The position numbers and the translations under genes were made by a program. DNA of 64,000 nucleotides from a virus, in UHGV virus genome UHGV-0287696. One strand, written 5' to 3'. The notes under the pieces are model-generated. The model ran no database searches, had not been told where the DNA came from, and saw nothing but the letters and a program-made list of their open reading frames with translations. Each line of letters begins with the position of its first letter. Positions within the stretch are counted from its first letter, which is position 1. Below are positions 86 through 5,811 of this stretch, piece by piece.

Positions 86-757
86 ATGCCACCGAAAATT
101 GGTAAAACTGTAATTGAAGAAACTGTAAAGAACGAGACTAAAGTTAACGAAGCACAACCGCCTGTGAAAGTTGAGCTTTTACCCTGCGTTAATGAAATAC
201 TCGGGGTGAAATTCTTAACTTTTAGCCCGTATACTGACCTGGTTTTCGAACTTTATCAAGACCAGCCTTTCAACTTATTCACACTTGTCTGCACTTATAA
301 TGGTGATGTTTTGGCGGTTGCACCTGGTCTCAATAGAGACAAATTACTTACAGGCACGGTTATTACTGAAATTCTTCTGCGGTTAATGCATAAGTTTGAA
401 GGGCCTGAACTTGACAAAATCGCTGTTAAGTTAGCGGACTTGCTAATCAATGCCGCCACCTGGTTGTGTTTTAACCCTTCTATCTATTTCCATTTCAGTA
501 CAAATATTCTTCACGCCGTAACAGACGACGGTAAAAAGTATCGCATCTTAATTAAGGGTGGGGTGCAACAACCTTTGTTCTCTAGACAAAACTGCCATAT
601 TAAGTTTTCGCCTGACTTGGTAGAAGTTTACGGCCAGCGAGCAGCGGCTGGCCACTACGACGCCCATCTCAGATTTTTCAATTACCTGTATGAAAAATTA
701 GGGAAAGCTGGCTTGACACCCAATCTTGCTTTTACAAACTCTGCCCCTTCTGCATGA
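86..757 (+). CDS. hypothetical protein
   Basis: 223-aa ORF; AAGGAG Shine-Dalgarno 9 nt upstream of ATG; followed by hairpin plus T-run terminator. Confidence 0.6.
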   Translation: MPPKIGKTVIEETVKNETKVNEAQPPVKVELLPCVNEILGVKFLTFSPYTDLVFELYQDQPFNLFTLVCTYNGDVLAVAPGLNRDKLLTGTVITEILLRLMHKFEGPELDKIAVKLADLLINAATWLCFNPSIYFHFSTNILHAVTDDGKKYRILIKGGVQQPLFSRQNCHIKFSPDLVEVYGQRAAAGHYDAHLRFFNYLYEKLGKAGLTPNLAFTNSAPSA

Positions 758-769
758 TGTTTAATAATT

Positions 770-799
770 GGGGAACTTCGGTTCCCCTTTCTTTTTTGT
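770..799 (+). terminator. rho-independent terminator
   Basis: inverted repeat ggggaac/gttcccc followed by T-run. Confidence 0.6.
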
Positions 800-851
800 T
801 TTTACAACTTTAGCGTATTGTTTTGAGACGACCTTTTAAGGAGTAATTAAC

Positions 852-1850
852 ATGGCTTTTATGAAGATTATAAAACATACCGCCACGGATTTAACAGTAG
901 GTCGGTTAGCACGTAGAGATATTCGCAATCCTCAACTTCAGACATGTTTATCGGGCCCTAACGGTGCTGTGATTCGTGAGGCGTTGTGCAATAGTGAACT
1001 GAATACGTTCTCTTTACAAAAAGGAAAAACAATCCAAGGGTTTATCATCACAAAACACATTTACGGCGACCCAACGTTACACTGCTTGTATATGCATGAA
1101 ATTGTACCGGGTTGTTTGAACAAACTGAACCTGTTACTGGTACTCGACTATACCGGTTTTACGTATCTTAATCGAATCGCCAGTGGTGTAGAAGAAATCG
1201 CTGAGCTTAATGACTTAGGATTTAGACACACCCACACTACGTATCGTTTAGGTACACGCTCGTTATTGGATATCGCTCTACCAACAAACGTGAAGAACAT
1301 CTCCGGCGATTTTTATAAAGAGCTAACCGCTGCACAACGTGAACAGCTTATGTTGCTTTTGGGTACGAGTGTCGTTGAAAACATCAACGGTGACCCTGTA
1401 GGTCGCACACGACAAATCATGCCACAAGTCGAAACGTTGGTGGAGTTAGTACGTCATGTCAACCACCACACCTACGTTTGGATGGATGGCAATGATATTG
1501 TGGGCGCGGTGCAAGTTAAATTGCGTAATCTTAACGAGTGTGAATTAAAAGCCATTGCGGTAAGTGAGACACATCGGGGTCGTGGTATCGGACGGACTTT
1601 ATTGTATCGTGCTCTACAAATTGCATCGACAACAGCGGCACCATTAGAGATAGGGTGTTTCAATAACAACCCTGCATTCAGGCACCTGGCCGTCGAATTA
1701 TTTAAATTTCGCCCCTACGAATACGAACTTGTTTTAGTGCGTGACGAAAACGTCGTCAGTTGGGAGCGTCAGAAAAATCATGTCAGATTGGTGTTAGTCG
1801 ACGAAGTGTCATCGTTACAAGGCGGATATAATGCGGAAACCGATAATTAA
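852..1850 (+). CDS. hypothetical protein with C-terminal GNAT-like acetyltransferase motif
   Basis: 332-aa ORF; AAGGAG Shine-Dalgarno; C-terminal HRGRGIGRTLL fits the GNAT (R/Q)xxGxG acetyl-CoA motif; 3' end overlaps the next gene. Confidence 0.45.
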   Translation: MAFMKIIKHTATDLTVGRLARRDIRNPQLQTCLSGPNGAVIREALCNSELNTFSLQKGKTIQGFIITKHIYGDPTLHCLYMHEIVPGCLNKLNLLLVLDYTGFTYLNRIASGVEEIAELNDLGFRHTHTTYRLGTRSLLDIALPTNVKNISGDFYKELTAAQREQLMLLLGTSVVENINGDPVGRTRQIMPQVETLVELVRHVNHHTYVWMDGNDIVGAVQVKLRNLNECELKAIAVSETHRGRGIGRTLLYRALQIASTTAAPLEIGCFNNNPAFRHLAVELFKFRPYEYELVLVRDENVVSWERQKNHVRLVLVDEVSSLQGGYNAETDN

Positions 1851-2646
1851 ATGGATGGGTGGGAAAACACGCGTTTTGGGTGAATTACAAAAGGTCTTAC
1901 CTAAACGTACAACCTTTGTAGAACCGTTTGTGGGCGCAGGGTCTGTTTTCCTAAATACGAATTACAGCCGGTATATTCTATCGGATTCTAACCCCGATTT
2001 GATACGCTTACTTTGTGTTGCGCGTGAACAGCCTGAAGAACTGATCGCTGCGTCGCAACCGTTGTTCTTAGACGGTAATACCACTGTAAAGTATATGGAA
2101 CGTCGTGAACTGTTTAATAGCGGTAAAACGATGTCCGAAGTTGAACGTGCTGCAATGTTTTTATACTTAATGCGTCACGGCTATAACGGGATGTGTCGCT
2201 ATAACAGTAGTGGTGGATTCAATGTTCCGTTTGGACGTTACCCGAATGGCGTTTATTATCCATTAGAAGAAATTCGGGATTGGGCTAAACGTTGCGCAGA
2301 AGTTGAGTATCTGGAAATTGTTTGTGAGGACTTTCGTTCTGTATTAGCACGGACACCTGAAGATGCCGTGATTTATGCTGATCCTCCTTATATTCCGTTA
2401 TCGGATACCGCGAAACACGCTCAATATCACCGTAAAGAATTCTCACAAACGGATCATCGGGAATTAGCCAAGTTACTACAGCAGCAGGTGGAACGTGGCA
2501 ACAGCGTCGTGCTGTCAAATGCAGACACCCTACTCACCCGAGAAATTTATTACGGTTTTGAGTGGCGCAGTATTGAGGTTGGTCGCTATATGGGTGCGTC
2601 TGGTGCCGCTCGGAAAACAGTGACTGAATTACTGGGAGTGCTCTAA
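1831..2646 (+). CDS. dam: DNA adenine methyltransferase (Dam-like, N6-adenine)
   Basis: KWMGGK, EPFVGAGSVFLNT (AdoMet binding), YNGMCRYN and DPPY catalytic motifs collinear with E. coli Dam; 271 aa. Confidence 0.9.
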   Translation: MRKPIIKWMGGKTRVLGELQKVLPKRTTFVEPFVGAGSVFLNTNYSRYILSDSNPDLIRLLCVAREQPEELIAASQPLFLDGNTTVKYMERRELFNSGKTMSEVERAAMFLYLMRHGYNGMCRYNSSGGFNVPFGRYPNGVYYPLEEIRDWAKRCAEVEYLEIVCEDFRSVLARTPEDAVIYADPPYIPLSDTAKHAQYHRKEFSQTDHRELAKLLQQQVERGNSVVLSNADTLLTREIYYGFEWRSIEVGRYMGASGAARKTVTELLGVL

Positions 2647-3419
2647 TGCGCATAGTGGATATCCACGATTATCGTAATGACCATTTAGCAATCGGTGTGG
2701 ATGGCAAAATGGTTTCGCTAACCCGTGTACGGAAAGGGTTACTGGAAAAGGACGTCATTCGCGAATCTGAAGATCCGACCTTTATCATTCTTTCGAACAC
2801 GAATCAGCTACAAGGAATCTTCTCCGGCCGTACCGATGGTAAGTTTTTCTACATGTCGGCAATCGTTATGGTTGAGAAGAAGAAAATTAATTTCGCACAA
2901 CTCAAACGGTTGTTAAATGTGGAGGTGTTTGATATCACCTACCCTGCCAACGACCTAAAACGTCGTGATCAGTTAATGATGTTTTTGGGTATGCAGCCGA
3001 CGTCTATCGACTATGACCTGACGTTTACTGAAGAACCCGAAGTTTGCACCGATTTACCTGATGTAGTTGACATTGAATCTCTAACGTTAGAAGAAACGTT
3101 TACGATTCCTAAGGTGGCTAATGTCAGTTTGGATACGTACTGCCTGGGTTTGTTAGCGATTGGGGCTGCCGAAGGGCTGTGCTGCCGTAAAGATGGTAAA
3201 GTTGAAGGTATCTTAGTCTATTCGAAAATCAACGAAAAGACGTTTGCCACCGAAGGTTTCTTCTATAACGATTGTACTTACGGGAATGCACTCTTAACCA
3301 CATACTGCCGTATTGCGTATTTAAAGGGGGCAACCGTGCGTCTTACTTTTCCATATTCAGCACCTCCAGCGATGTCTGGTGTTGAAGCAGAAGCATTAAC
3401 TGGCCATTTTATCTTTTAA
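2646..3419 (+). CDS. hypothetical protein
   Basis: 257-aa ORF whose ATG overlaps the dam stop (ATGA-type coupling). Confidence 0.55.
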   Translation: MRIVDIHDYRNDHLAIGVDGKMVSLTRVRKGLLEKDVIRESEDPTFIILSNTNQLQGIFSGRTDGKFFYMSAIVMVEKKKINFAQLKRLLNVEVFDITYPANDLKRRDQLMMFLGMQPTSIDYDLTFTEEPEVCTDLPDVVDIESLTLEETFTIPKVANVSLDTYCLGLLAIGAAEGLCCRKDGKVEGILVYSKINEKTFATEGFFYNDCTYGNALLTTYCRIAYLKGATVRLTFPYSAPPAMSGVEAEALTGHFIF

Positions 3420-3428
3420 GGACATTGA

Positions 3429-3656
3429 ATGGAAATCAAACGTATTGTAACCAAAGACAAAAAGATTACTTACGTCGCAGGTGATAACGAATTCTCGGCG
3501 GTTATTAATACTGAGAACGTGCTGATTATCGGTTATCCAGGTAAAGTCATTACTCGTAGCCATCAGCGCGTGATTGACAAGCTCATCGCCAAAGCAAAAG
3601 CGCGTGACGGTGTTGGTTCAGTAGAAACCCATACCGGGTTAACGTTGGCACTCTAA
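3429..3656 (+). CDS. hypothetical protein
   Basis: 75-aa ORF tightly packed after the previous gene. Confidence 0.45.
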   Translation: MEIKRIVTKDKKITYVAGDNEFSAVINTENVLIIGYPGKVITRSHQRVIDKLIAKAKARDGVGSVETHTGLTLAL

Positions 3657-3694
3657 CCAGCAGGTAATATGACCTCTTAACTGGAGACTTAGAG

Positions 3695-4201
3695 ATGAAA
3701 GAGACTCTGGATTTTAATCAGCTTGAGCAGCACGATTTTGATCTCGGTGTTCGCGACTTAGAAGCTGACTATGAAACGCGTTGTAAAGAATTCTTTAATC
3801 GCTACGGGCAATTGATTACCGGGGCATCTGAAGACACCGAATTCTCGTTAGACGATTTCGAAAAGATTCTATCTTGCTTTATCACCGACAGCTTAGCGAA
3901 ACAGGCGTTGCTGGTAGAACAGAACCTGCAAATGGTGGAGCCTACGGATGCTCACGCCGTGCTAAAAGAATCCATTATTCCGAACGACGAAATTATGGAT
4001 GCGGTAGCAGGTATTCGTGGTACGTTCGACAGCGCTGTGGAAGACTATACCGAGCAGCTTCGTGAGTCTGGGCTAACGTTGTGTGCACCTGCGGGCGAAC
4101 AGTTACCTTCTGAAGAAGAAACGGAAGAAGCACGCAGTCGTTTAGCGCGTTATGTGATTACTTCGATTTTAGTAGACGATCGCGAAGAAAACGTACTGTA
4201 A
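3695..4201 (+). CDS. hypothetical acidic protein
   Basis: 168-aa ORF; GGAGA upstream of ATG; followed by a terminator. Confidence 0.55.
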   Translation: MKETLDFNQLEQHDFDLGVRDLEADYETRCKEFFNRYGQLITGASEDTEFSLDDFEKILSCFITDSLAKQALLVEQNLQMVEPTDAHAVLKESIIPNDEIMDAVAGIRGTFDSAVEDYTEQLRESGLTLCAPAGEQLPSEEETEEARSRLARYVITSILVDDREENVL

Positions 4202-4206
4202 ACTTA

Positions 4207-4243
4207 CCCTCTCTCCGTTTGGAGAGAGGGAGTATTTATTTTT
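4207..4243 (+). terminator. rho-independent terminator
   Basis: hairpin ccctctctcc-gttt-ggagagaggg followed by T-run. Confidence 0.75.
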
Positions 4244-4635: not shown

Positions 4636-4921
4636 TACCGATGAAACGAATTTACAGCGCTTGCAACGGGCACTAACTGCACCGCTAGGCGGTGAGATTC
4701 ACGAACGTTGGGTAATTGCGAGGGTGGTAGAAATTGACTATTCTCAGGATCAGTTACTGTTAAACAACTGCTCGACGAACGTGTCTTTCACGTTACCGCG
4801 CGCTGTATTCCGTCTTACGCCCAACGTTGATGAAATACTGACTATTGACAGGAAACTTCTGTCGATAGAACTACAGCATTTCCCGCTACCTGGTAAGTCG
4901 GTTAACATCGCGCTATACTGA
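4613..4921 (+). CDS. hypothetical protein
   Basis: ORF track frame 4601..4921; in-frame ATG at 4613 preceded by GGGGA chosen as start (TTG at 4601 is the alternative). Confidence 0.4.
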   Translation: MSSQNHTNTDETNLQRLQRALTAPLGGEIHERWVIARVVEIDYSQDQLLLNNCSTNVSFTLPRAVFRLTPNVDEILTIDRKLLSIELQHFPLPGKSVNIALY

Positions 4922-4936
4922 TAATTGTCTAAAAAA

Positions 4937-4976
4937 TTTAAGATATATTTCATCTATGTGAGAATTCTCACTTAAC
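4937..4976 (+). promoter_or_regulatory. promoter-like box (divergent copy) with leader hairpin
   Basis: tttaagatatatttcatc...gtgagaattctcac-ttaactaaa; related to the AGATATAT boxes at 18790, 22591, 54647 and 58936; sits about 20 nt upstream of the ATG at 4995. Confidence 0.35.
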
Positions 4977-4994
4977 TAAATGGAGTAATCTAAA

Positions 4995-5264
4995 ATGGGT
5001 AAGATTTATATTGTTGAAAAACGTGCAGGTAATGTTCTTTCCTATTACGAAGAAGGTAAACCTGAAAAGGTTAAAACACTCAAACTCGACGGCTTCAATG
5101 TGAAGAGTTTACGTAAGGGTGTGAAGATTACCTTTAAAGGTCTGATTCGCGCAGGTAACTTGCAGATTGTTAAGGACGACGGCACGATGGTTGCGTTAGC
5201 ACCGGCCAGTGCTGCGAAAACGACAGCAGGTTGTGGCTGCTACGGTAGCAGTCGTAAGATTTAA
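4995..5264 (+). CDS. hypothetical protein
   Basis: 89-aa ORF downstream of the promoter-like box; terminator immediately after. Confidence 0.5.
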   Translation: MGKIYIVEKRAGNVLSYYEEGKPEKVKTLKLDGFNVKSLRKGVKITFKGLIRAGNLQIVKDDGTMVALAPASAAKTTAGCGCYGSSRKI

Positions 5265-5270
5265 GCAGTG

Positions 5271-5308
5271 CCCCTCTCTCCGTCTGGAGAGAGGGTACTT
5301 TTATTTTT
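5271..5308 (+). terminator. rho-independent terminator
   Basis: hairpin cccctctctcc-gtct-ggagagaggg plus T-run; near-copy of the terminator at 4207. Confidence 0.75.
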
Positions 5309-5322
5309 CTTCGAGGTGCGTG

Positions 5323-5811
5323 ATGACAACGGTATTAGTAACAAAGGATTACATTTTAGCTGACCGACTTGTGGATTATGCTGGTACGGTTAAAGAATTG
5401 CCCAAACTGCATAAACACAAAAACAAGTTTGTTTTCTACACGGGTGAACGTGTACTGGACACCGAGTTTTGGAAAATGTCGATTACCGCTGCTATAGAAA
5501 AATATTTAGACGAGGATAAACGTAAGAAAGTTGAGCCCCTGTTTGCAGATCTTATCGAAAAAGAGCGAATATACGATCAAATCGTCATTTTTACGGCTAG
5601 AGAAACACATTGGTTGACGTTAGTAGCAGATAAGTTTAAAACGTTTGTAATAAATAAAAATGCGGTTTGGACAACGGGTTCTGGTGGCGGCTTTGCGCGG
5701 GCTGCTTGGGCAACTGGAATATCAGAAAAGAAAATTATGCCATTGGTAGGTTCTATTGATCCATCTAGCTCGACCACCTATGACTTATTTTACAGGAAGC
5801 ACTTACGATGA
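5323..5811 (+). CDS. hypothetical protein
   Basis: ORF track frame 5209..5811 begins inside the preceding gene and terminator; first ATG after the terminator is 5323 with GAGG upstream. Confidence 0.5.
   Translation: MTTVLVTKDYILADRLVDYAGTVKELPKLHKHKNKFVFYTGERVLDTEFWKMSITAAIEKYLDEDKRKKVEPLFADLIEKERIYDQIVIFTARETHWLTLVADKFKTFVINKNAVWTTGSGGGFARAAWATGISEKKIMPLVGSIDPSSSTTYDLFYRKHLR

What the first reader, a model, noticed from the sequence alone, without database searches (positions are those of the whole stretch)
852..2646. Dam methyltransferase translationally overlapped by an upstream GNAT-motif protein
The dam ATG lies 20 nt inside the 3' end of a 332-aa protein whose C-terminus has a GNAT-like acetyl-CoA motif, and the next gene starts at the dam stop. 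Phage Dam enzymes protect against GATC-targeting restriction; a coupled acetyltransferase could be a further anti-defence or host-modifying function.
Basis: partly seen in the sequence, partly recalled or inferred. Interest (0 to 1): 0.4.

Follow-up and report, generated by a model that had tools for sequence, protein, structure and literature searches.

The report
Jumbo-phage tandem-GNAT gene overlapping orphan Dam
Two ordinary, already-annotated jumbo-phage genes, an acetyltransferase-family protein and a GATC DNA methylase, sit next to each other, and their 20-base overlap comes from a recent stop-codon change, so it is not evidence that the two enzymes work together.

Summary
ORF 852-1850 (332 aa) overlaps ORF 1831-2646 (271 aa) by 20 nt, and the next ATG (2646) shares a base with the dam stop. 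The 271-aa protein is a Dam-family methyltransferase: PF02086 at 3e-57, E 8.5e-65 to E. coli Dam, with the DPPY, FxGxG and GATC-contact residues kept. It has no nuclease partner. The 332-aa protein passes the GNAT profile (PF00583, 47.8 bits against a 20.7 cut-off). A confident model shows a tandem GNAT like MshD and VipF, and only the C-terminal half keeps the acetyl-CoA loop (RGRGIG).

The window comes from an undescribed ~225-kb relative of Salmonella jumbo phage SPN3US. SPN3US gp104 and gp105 are the same gene pair and are already annotated as GNAT and Dam.

Functional coupling is not supported:
- The junction ranges from -20 and -8 nt to +1 through +79 nt among relatives.
- The 20-nt overlap arose from a TAA-to-GAA stop loss.
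- Erwinia phage Asesino keeps dam without the GNAT gene.
- Dam is 67% identical to SPN3US, but the GNAT only 31%.
- The adjacency sits inside region-wide collinearity.

GATC is depleted in the window (O/E 0.56) and more strongly in relatives (0.17-0.35). The gene after dam is probably a degenerate GNAT paralogue. Verdict: an ordinary new member of known kinds, of low interest.

The parts
770..787 (+). Terminator-like hairpin (GGGGAAC-TTCG-GTTCCCC followed by a T-run) that closes the upstream gene 86..757. It is the upstream boundary of the transcription unit.
   Evidence: sequence
838..843 (+). Shine-Dalgarno AAGGAG, 8 nt before the GNAT ATG.
   Evidence: read directly from the sequence
852..1850 (+). 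Tandem-GNAT acyl-CoA N-acyltransferase-family protein, 332 aa. Orthologue of SPN3US gp104 (SPN3US_0104); PHROG 8663.
891..1250 (+). N-terminal GNAT-fold half (aa 14-133). It has no acetyl-CoA pyrophosphate loop, so it is a presumed pseudo-GNAT. Family-conserved motifs are GDPTL (aa 72-76) and LDYTG (aa 98-102).
1290..1739 (+). C-terminal GNAT domain (aa 147-296), presumed catalytic. Motif A RGRGIG lies at aa 242-247 (nt 1575-1592).
1819..1826 (+). Shine-Dalgarno-like AAGGCGGA for dam, lying inside the 3' end of the GNAT gene. It is conserved in the close lineage.
1831..1850 (+). 20-nt overlap of the GNAT 3' end with the dam 5' end. A TAA-to-GAA stop loss created it; sister lineages overlap by 8 nt.
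   Evidence: junction alignment; spacing survey
1831..2646 (+). Orphan Dam-family N6-adenine DNA methyltransferase, 271 aa, predicted to be GATC-specific. Orthologue of SPN3US gp105. Motifs: FVGAGS at aa 33-38, DPPY at aa 184-187, recognition hairpin YNGMCRYN...FNVPFGRY at aa 118-137.
2646..3419 (+). 257-aa protein of the SPN3US gp106 family (PHROG 9941). Probably a degenerate tandem-GNAT paralogue without an acetyl-CoA loop. Its ATG shares a base with the dam stop.
3429..3656 (+). 75-aa protein (PHROG 7896) in the same unit; function unknown.
3695..4201 (+). 168-aa, very acidic protein (pI 4.1, net charge -25; PHROG 8221). Last gene of the unit.
4207..4230 (+). Strong terminator-like hairpin (CCCTCTCTCC-GTTT-GGAGAGAGGG followed by a T-rich tail). 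Downstream boundary of the unit.

Best explanation
This is the start of a five-gene unit (852-4201) bounded by terminator-like hairpins, in an undescribed ~225-kb jumbo phage of Enterobacteriaceae related to Salmonella phage SPN3US.

Gene 1 encodes a tandem-GNAT acyltransferase-family protein. Its N-terminal half is a GNAT-fold domain that has lost the acetyl-CoA loop. Its C-terminal half keeps the loop and is the presumed catalytic domain. The acceptor substrate is unknown.

Gene 2 encodes an orphan Dam methyltransferase. It most likely methylates the adenine in GATC on phage DNA, which is itself depleted of GATC. The effect would be to blunt host nucleases that read the GATC methylation state, such as MboI/DpnII-type restriction enzymes and MutH.

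The genes are probably co-transcribed, and dam translation is probably coupled to GNAT termination through the overlap. That is ordinary phage gene packing. The two enzymes most likely act independently.

Shown here: the gene identities, motifs, predicted fold, synteny, variable junction, GATC depletion and unequal conservation.

Inferred: GATC specificity, catalytic activity of both enzymes, co-transcription, and the protective role of Dam.
For: Gene identities:
- The Pfam, NCBIfam, PADLOC and PDB matches agree on both genes.
- The Dam residues aligned to E. coli K9, Y119, N120, R124, P134, R137 and Y138 are identical, and L122 is replaced by Met (alignment). The roles of these residues come from my knowledge of the 2g1p and T4 Dam structural papers.
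- PADLOC's best hit for Dam is an 'orphan methyltransferase' model (E 3e-86), and no neighbouring gene matches a nuclease family.

Orthologous pair and variable junction:
- The same pair is annotated in SPN3US (gp104, gp105), Machina, Wellington, Kwan, Caitlin and pEa_SNUABM_8. PGAP also annotates it on 222-kb circular records from E. coli and Enterobacter.
- Junction spacing is -20, -8, +1, +6, +8, +9, +30 and +79 nt across relatives.
- A stop-loss substitution explains the -20 state.

Other context:
- Terminator-like hairpins lie at 770-787 and 4207-4230.
- GATC observed/expected is 0.56 in the window, 0.35 in 50 kb of SPN3US, and 0.17-0.27 in the Erwinia relatives.
- GATC avoidance in enterobacteriophages is an established observation (McClelland 1984 and Deschavanne & Radman 1991, as cited in PMC5014478).
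Against: - No methylation data exist for this phage or for SPN3US in the literature searched.
- SPN3US has a chimallin homologue and probably a phage nucleus (PMC9365700). That raises the untested question of where Dam meets phage DNA, and whether nuclease protection is needed once the DNA is enclosed.
- Strong GATC depletion together with a highly conserved dam could instead mean that Dam acts on host DNA or has a regulatory role.
- The GNAT-then-dam order is conserved across several genera and both genes lie in one transcription unit. That is weakly compatible with a shared function.
Confidence: 0.72

Rival explanations
1. The GNAT and Dam form a real two-enzyme counter-defence or host-takeover module. 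The GNAT would acetylate a host protein, such as a defence nuclease, a nucleoid protein or an RNA polymerase subunit, as the anti-CRISPR AcrVA5 or the phiKMV-like Rac protein do. Dam would mask GATC sites. Co-expression would be enforced by translational coupling.
For: - The gene order GNAT-then-dam is conserved in Seoulvirus, Machinavirus and Wellingtonvirus and in the window's lineage.
- Both genes lie in one terminator-bounded unit.
- The genes overlap by 8-20 nt in the window's lineage.
- The GNAT evolves fast (31% identity to SPN3US), as host-interaction proteins often do.
- Iyer et al. propose that jumbo-phage GNATs modify host proteins in the manner of Rac (PMC7824862).
Against: - The whole region is collinear in these phages (thymidylate kinase, HTH protein and so on), so the adjacency is inherited and is not independent evidence.
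- The GNAT family exists only in this clade. An exhaustive HMMER scan of 1.84 billion representatives found 7 at E<1e-30, and IMG/VR holds 7 loci. Co-occurrence therefore cannot be tested independently.
- Asesino has dam without the GNAT.
- Junction spacing is not conserved.
- PADLOC gives no hit for the GNAT.
Confidence: 0.15
2. The GNAT acts on nucleic acid, like Mu Mom, which acylates adenine N6. It would add a second adenine modification alongside Dam methylation.
For: Mom belongs to the GNAT superfamily, and Mom-type and other GNAT-based DNA modification systems have been predicted in some jumbo phages (PMC7824862). The gene also lies next to an adenine methylase.
Against: - hhalign of the family profile against Mu Mom gives probability 0.3%.
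- No Pfam or NCBIfam hit other than generic GNAT models was found.
- The protein is charge-neutral (pI 7.2).
- The closest structural matches are small-molecule and protein N-acetyltransferases.
Confidence: 0.03
3. The 332-aa protein is no longer an enzyme. It would be a GNAT-fold scaffold or binding protein, like its degenerate neighbour gp106 or the GNAT-fold domain of chimallin.
For: - The N-terminal half has lost motif A.
- In Machinavirus and Wellingtonvirus orthologues the first glycine of the loop is replaced by Arg (KRIG, KRHG).
- In this family the position that aligns with the Tyr of VipF's 'hLY' motif is variable: A, V, Y, F or L. That this Tyr acts as a general acid in many GNATs is from my own knowledge.
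- The neighbouring probable paralogue is fully degenerate.
- Chimallin shows that these phages do reuse the GNAT fold non-enzymatically (PMC9365700).
Against: - In the window and its Seoulvirus-like relatives the loop is canonical (R/Q-x-x-G-x-G).
- PF00583 scores well above its gathering threshold.
- G247, N273 and L279 are invariant and H278 is nearly so.
Confidence: 0.1

Closest known systems
Salmonella phage SPN3US gp104 (SPN3US_0104, 'putative GCN5-related N-acetyltransferase') and gp105 (SPN3US_0105, 'putative DNA adenine methylase')
   Same: Orthologous pair in the same order and the same genomic neighbourhood. The GNAT is 332 aa in both phages. Dam is 67% identical and the GNAT 31% identical.
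   Different: SPN3US has a 30-nt gap instead of a 20-nt overlap. It also has two ~270-aa genes after dam (gp106 and gp107), whereas the window has only the gp106-type gene. Neither SPN3US protein is mentioned in the essential-gene and virion paper that was checked (PMC5105663).
E. coli Dam (PDB 2g1p) and the Dam family TIGR00571
   Same: E 8.5e-65 over the full length. It has the DPPY catalytic motif, the FxGxG AdoMet motif and the DNA-contact hairpin residues, and it is an orphan with no cognate nuclease.
   Different: It scores below the E. coli Dam equivalog cut-off (NF008152: 257 bits against 441). L122 is replaced by Met. It is phage-encoded, in a genome depleted of GATC.
Tandem-GNAT enzymes: mycothiol synthase MshD (1ozp), M. 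abscessus MAB_4324 (7q3a), Legionella VipF (6wqb)
   Different: Identity is only 10-12%. The MshD equivalog is not met (19 bits against 163). No substrate can be inferred. The family is restricted to one jumbo-phage clade.
Small SpeG-like spermidine acetyltransferases of the same phages (SPN3US YP_009153389, 154 aa; Caitlin and phiEaH2 homologues)
   Same: These are GNAT-superfamily genes in the same phages, about 4-5 kb upstream. The 225-kb relative L008 has a 155-aa GNAT at 994-1461. Some were shown to acetylate spermidine (PMC9992855).
   Different: They belong to a different gene family: single-domain, about 155 aa. The 332-aa protein matches SpeG structures only at E about 1e-3. The SPN3US small GNAT was inactive as a spermidine acetyltransferase in that study.

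Membership tests
GNAT superfamily (Pfam PF00583 Acetyltransf_1) | Profile match above Pfam's gathering score | tested here: met
   47.8 bits against 20.7, E 2.1e-12, aa 199-280. PF13508 (35.6 against 27) and PF13673 (24.4 against 23.6) are also above their cut-offs.
GNAT superfamily (Pfam PF00583 Acetyltransf_1) | Motif A pyrophosphate-binding loop Q/R-x-x-G-x-G/A after strand beta-4 | tested here: met
   RGRGIG at aa 242-247. The N-terminal half lacks it. Orthologues in Machinavirus and Wellingtonvirus have Arg in place of the first Gly.
GNAT superfamily (Pfam PF00583 Acetyltransf_1) | GNAT alpha/beta fold | tested here: met
GNAT superfamily (Pfam PF00583 Acetyltransf_1) | Acyl-CoA-dependent acyl transfer to an amine acceptor | not testable with these tools
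   Needs purified protein and an activity assay.
Tandem-GNAT architecture (MshD, VipF, MAB_4324 type) | Two GNAT-fold domains in one polypeptide | tested here: met
Mycothiol synthase MshD (NCBIfam TIGR03448 equivalog) | Equivalog score at or above 163.1 bits | tested here: not met
   19.1 bits.
Dam family site-specific DNA-(adenine-N6)-methyltransferase (TIGR00571 / PF02086 D12 class) | Profile match above the curated cut-off | tested here: met
   TIGR00571 scores 254.2 bits against 114.85. PF02086 scores 194.5 bits against 22.
Dam family site-specific DNA-(adenine-N6)-methyltransferase (TIGR00571 / PF02086 D12 class) | Catalytic DPPY motif and FxGxG AdoMet-binding motif | tested here: met
   DPPY at aa 184-187 and FVGAGS at aa 33-38.
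Dam family site-specific DNA-(adenine-N6)-methyltransferase (TIGR00571 / PF02086 D12 class) | GATC recognition residues of E. coli Dam (K9, Y119, N120, L122, R124, P134, R137, Y138) | tested here: met
   All are identical in the alignment except L122, which is Met. The residue roles, and the point that T4 Dam also has Met at this position, come from my own knowledge of the structural literature and were not tested here.
Dam family site-specific DNA-(adenine-N6)-methyltransferase (TIGR00571 / PF02086 D12 class) | m6A at GATC in vivo | not testable with these tools
   Needs DpnI/MboI digestion or SMRT/nanopore sequencing of virion DNA.
E. coli-type Dam equivalog (NCBIfam NF008152) | Equivalog score at or above 441 bits | tested here: not met
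   257 bits.
Type II restriction-modification system | Cognate restriction endonuclease gene next to the methyltransferase | tested here: not met
   The neighbours 852-1850, 2646-3419, 3429-3656 and 3695-4201 have no nuclease match in Pfam, PHROGs or PADLOC. The best PADLOC model for Dam is 'orphan methyltransferase'.
Mom-type DNA adenine acyltransferase (phage Mu Mom) | Detectable homology to Mom | tested here: not met
   hhalign of the family profile against Mu Mom gives probability 0.3%, E 0.2.
SpeG-type spermidine N-acetyltransferase | Close sequence similarity to SpeG | tested here: not met
   Only generic GNAT-level matches, E about 1e-3, to SpeG structures. There is no NCBIfam SpeG hit.

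The most novel reading that the evidence does not exclude
In SPN3US-like jumbo phages, dam sits inside a small array of tandem-GNAT-fold paralogues: an active gp104-type protein upstream and a degenerate gp106-type protein downstream, possibly with more nearby. Under this reading they form a clade-specific module. The active GNAT would acetylate a host or phage DNA-associated or defence protein, the pseudo-GNAT would act as a specificity or regulatory partner, and both would work together with GATC methylation and genome-wide GATC avoidance.
Probability: 0.1. Interest if true: 0.5.

Novelty: new member of a known kind. Interest (0 to 1): 0.15.

Why it matters
The finding matters little as it stands. 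Both genes are routinely annotated in SPN3US-like phages, and the overlap is a lineage-specific accident.

Three side results could help people who work on nucleus-forming jumbo phages:
- gp104-type proteins are tandem GNATs with a dead N-terminal half.
- The gene after dam is probably a degenerate paralogue of gp104.
- A clade that conserves dam strongly also avoids GATC strongly. This makes the role of Dam easy to test in phages whose DNA probably replicates inside a protein shell, whether that role is protection, mismatch-repair evasion or action on host DNA.

Tried and rejected
- **Mom-like DNA acyltransferase.** Rejected: hhalign probability 0.3%.
- **SpeG-type spermidine acetyltransferase.** Rejected for this protein. 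That role belongs to a separate ~155-aa GNAT a few kb upstream in relatives.
- **Restriction-modification pair.** Rejected: no nuclease neighbour.
- **Upstream 223-aa gene (86..757) as another GNAT paralogue.** No support: hhalign probability 1.6%.
- **gp107-type second downstream family as a paralogue, and further paralogues elsewhere in the window.** No sequence-profile support.
- **Candidate promoter motif TTTTTACAAC upstream of the unit.** Not enriched: 5 matches against 4.7 expected.
- **Sigma-70-type promoters.** Not enriched: 17 against 21.5 expected.
- **Literature on SPN3US gp104/gp105, on tandem GNATs in phages, and on Dam in nucleus-forming phages.** Nothing specific was found.
- **Independent co-occurrence of this GNAT family with dam outside the clade.** Cannot be tested, because the family does not exist outside the clade.
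Full report
**1. What is in the sequence**

- ORF 852..1850 (+, 332 aa) starts 8 nt after an AAGGAG Shine-Dalgarno sequence.
- ORF 1831..2646 (+, 271 aa) starts after AAGGCGGA. It overlaps the first ORF by 20 nt.
- ORF 2646..3419 (+, 257 aa) begins on the last base of the dam stop codon (TAATG).
- Terminator-like hairpins at 770-787 and 4207-4230 bracket five same-strand genes: 852-1850, 1831-2646, 2646-3419, 3429-3656 and 3695-4201. I read this as one transcription unit. That is an inference from a consensus scan.

**2. Identity of the methyltransferase**

The 271-aa protein matches the expected family models.
- Pfam PF02086 (D12 class) matches at E 3.4e-57.
- NCBIfam TIGR00571 (Dam family) scores 254 bits against a cut-off of 114.85.
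- E. coli Dam structures match at E 8.5e-65 over the full length. DpnM matches at 5.5e-40 and T4 Dam at 1e-10.
- It scores below the strict E. coli equivalog cut-off (257 against 441 bits). It is therefore a Dam-family member but not an E. coli-type equivalog.

The catalytic and recognition features are in place.
- The FxGxG motif (FVGAGS, aa 33-38) and DPPY (aa 184-187) are present.
- In the alignment, the residues opposite E. coli K9, Y119, N120, R124, P134, R137 and Y138 are identical, and L122 is Met.
- The assignment of these residues to GATC recognition comes from my knowledge of the Dam-DNA crystal structures. It was not tested here.

No neighbouring gene matches a nuclease family, and PADLOC's best model is 'orphan methyltransferase' (E 3e-86). 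I conclude that this is an orphan Dam, very probably specific for GATC.

**3. Identity of the upstream protein**

- PF00583 scores 47.8 bits against a gathering score of 20.7 (E 2.1e-12) over aa 199-280. PF13508 and PF13673 are also above threshold.
- The acetyl-CoA pyrophosphate loop is a canonical R-x-x-G-x-G (RGRGIG, aa 242-247).
- The whole protein belongs to PHROG 8663, of unknown function (E 1.3e-47).

An AlphaFold model built on eight family members is confident (pLDDT 81, pTM 0.73). It shows two successive GNAT-type beta-alpha units, at aa 14-133 and 147-296.

The N-terminal half has no motif A and no Pfam hit. It does carry the family's most conserved motifs, GDPTL and LDYTG.

The protein is therefore a tandem GNAT with a degenerate N-terminal domain and a presumably catalytic C-terminal one. 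The substrate cannot be inferred. The MshD equivalog is not met (19 against 163 bits). SpeG-type matches are only generic. Mu Mom shows no relationship (hhalign probability 0.3%).

**4. Where the window comes from**

Nothing in the phage collection (INPHARED, August 2025) matches at the DNA level, apart from 132 nt of dam in Erwinia phage Asesino.

At the protein level, the GNAT matches 48 records. They are jumbo phages of Salmonella (SPN3US and relatives), Erwinia, Escherichia and Proteus, at 23-31% identity.

Exact or near-exact copies of the three proteins are widespread.
- They lie on ~220-228-kb contigs from gut metagenomes.
- They also occur in isolate assemblies labelled Salmonella enterica, Shigella and E. 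coli.

Relatives about 80% identical at the DNA level are deposited as 222-kb circular 'plasmids' of E. coli 98232 and Enterobacter ludwigii. PGAP already calls the pair 'GNAT family N-acetyltransferase' and 'DNA adenine methylase' there.

In SPN3US the orthologues are SPN3US_0104 ('putative GCN5-related N-acetyltransferase') and SPN3US_0105 ('putative DNA adenine methylase'). The pair is therefore already annotated. I found no experimental work on either protein.

The GNAT family is narrow. An exhaustive HMMER scan of 1.84 billion representatives found only 7 at E<1e-30, and IMG/VR holds 7 loci.

**5. Is the overlap, or the adjacency, meaningful?**

The order GNAT, then dam, then a ~265-aa gene is conserved in Seoulvirus, Machinavirus and Wellingtonvirus and in the window's lineage. 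The whole neighbourhood is collinear in those genomes, so the adjacency is inherited. It is not independent evidence of a shared function.

The junction is not conserved.

| Spacing (nt) | Where |
|---|---|
| -20 | window, L008, L017, L020 |
| -8 | L010, L011, L016, L018, L019 |
| +1 | Machina |
| +6 | pEa_SNUABM_29 |
| +8 to +9 | Caitlin, pEa_SNUABM_8, and the IMG/VR locus L022 |
| +30 | SPN3US |
| +79 | Wellington, Kwan, L012 |

A junction alignment shows how the -20 state arose. In the -8 lineages the GNAT ORF ends GCA-TAA. In the window lineage that codon is GAA, and the ORF runs four more codons to the next TAA.

Three further points argue against tight coupling.
- Overlaps are common in this window. 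22 of 67 same-strand junctions overlap when longest-ORF starts are used, which overestimates overlaps.
- Asesino keeps a full-length dam at the same position with no GNAT gene.
- Against SPN3US, Dam is 67.5% identical, among the better-conserved genes of the window. The GNAT is 31% identical, and the 257-aa gene is not detected at E<1e-5.

Taken together, the overlap reflects compact gene packing and probably translational coupling. It is not a conserved functional link.

**6. GATC frequency**

With a second-order Markov expectation, the window has 147 GATC sites against 264 expected (observed/expected 0.56, z = -9.6). Among the 16 palindromic tetramers, only CTAG has a lower ratio.

Depletion is stronger in the relatives.
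- 50 kb of SPN3US: 0.35 (z = -13).
- Short loci of the Erwinia phages and of L012, a Wellington-like contig: 0.17-0.27.

All of these phages carry dam, so the clade both avoids GATC and strongly conserves a GATC methylase. GATC avoidance in enterobacteriophages is a classical observation attributed to Dam- and MutH-dependent processes (McClelland 1984 and Deschavanne & Radman 1991, as cited in PMC5014478).

The most economical reading is that the phage reduces the number of sites and methylates the remainder. A role on host DNA or in regulation is not excluded. SPN3US has a chimallin homologue (PMC9365700), so where Dam meets phage DNA is an open and testable question.

**7. The gene after dam**

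The 257-aa protein belongs to PHROG 9941, the SPN3US gp106 family. Several lines of evidence suggest a distant relationship to the GNAT family.
- Profile-profile comparison with the GNAT family gives a collinear 195-column alignment at probability 54-64%, E 6e-5 to 1e-4. The aligned motif A position is degenerate.
- A Foldseek search of the GNAT model against viral predicted structures returned the orthologues and also uncharacterised proteins of 214-289 aa, several of them from Erwinia jumbo phages. One is a 276-aa Kwan protein (E 2e-10). Its length matches the gene immediately after dam in Kwan. That link rests on length only.

I regard 'degenerate tandem-GNAT paralogue' as probable but not established. 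The second downstream family (gp107 type) is absent from the window and shows no profile similarity. The upstream 223-aa protein is unrelated.

**8. Verdict**

The suggested functional coupling is not supported.

Mechanistically, I favour two independently acting products of one compact operon (confidence about 0.7).
- An orphan GATC Dam that acts on GATC-poor phage DNA.
- A tandem-GNAT acyltransferase with an unknown acceptor.

The rivals are a real counter-defence module (0.15), a pseudoenzyme (0.1), and a Mom-like DNA acyltransferase (0.03).

This is a new member of known kinds, of low interest. Its modest side value lies in the tandem-GNAT architecture, the probable pseudo-GNAT neighbour, and the combination of a conserved dam with GATC avoidance.

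Noticed in passing
window 3695-4201 (+): The 168-aa protein (PHROG 8221, unknown function) is extremely acidic: pI 4.1, net charge about -25. It is the last gene of the terminator-bounded unit that contains dam. Its composition resembles DNA-mimic anti-restriction proteins, but no structural or homology support was obtained.
   Followed up: no
window 4207-4230 and 5272-5295 (+): Two nearly identical 10-bp-stem terminator-like hairpins, CCCTCTCTCCGT(T/C)TGGAGAGAGGG, each followed by a T-rich tail, about 1 kb apart.
   Followed up: no
window 18797, 22600, 58945 (+): ATATATTAC occurs three times against 0.69 expected. The 18797 and 22600 copies lie in intergenic DNA upstream of genes, within a longer shared CAGATATATATTAC(C/T)TAG context. 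The setting of the 58945 copy was not inspected. This is a candidate phage promoter core.
   Followed up: partly
whole window; L016 (NZ_CP173450.1), H84 (NZ_CP134650.1): This jumbo-phage lineage (~222-228 kb) is deposited as circular 'plasmids' in complete genomes of E. coli 98232 and Enterobacter ludwigii. It also appears as ~225-kb contigs in Salmonella, Shigella and E. coli isolate assemblies. The August 2025 phage collection has no DNA match above about 85% identity. This suggests a carrier state or pseudolysogeny for an undescribed SPN3US relative.
   Followed up: partly
window (all), L015, L002, L004, L006, L012, L014: GATC is depleted across the whole dam-carrying clade: observed/expected 0.56 in the window, 0.35 in SPN3US, and 0.17-0.27 in the Erwinia relatives and L012. 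CTAG is also low in the window (0.35).
   Followed up: yes
L002 (Erwinia phage Asesino NC_031107.2) 4696-5514: The annotated dam CDS (record 98342-99073, 243 aa) probably starts 87 nt too far downstream. The full-length match and an ATG upstream of the conserved KWxGGK motif lie at record position 98255. Asesino also lacks the GNAT gene upstream of dam.
   Followed up: partly
window 3419-3429, compared with L001 7641-8453: The window and its close relatives lack the second ~270-aa gene (SPN3US gp107 family) that follows the gp106-type gene in Seoulvirus, Machinavirus, Wellingtonvirus and Asesino.
   Followed up: partly
window 32433-33755 (-) and 33739-34662 (-): Two adjacent genes are 81% and 69% identical to the SPN3US 'radical SAM domain-containing proteins'. 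They are among the most conserved genes between the window and SPN3US.
   Followed up: no
window 2380-2391: The codons for Dam's own DPPY catalytic motif begin with a GATC site (GAT CCT CCT TAT). It is one of three GATC sites inside dam. The GNAT gene has none.
   Followed up: no
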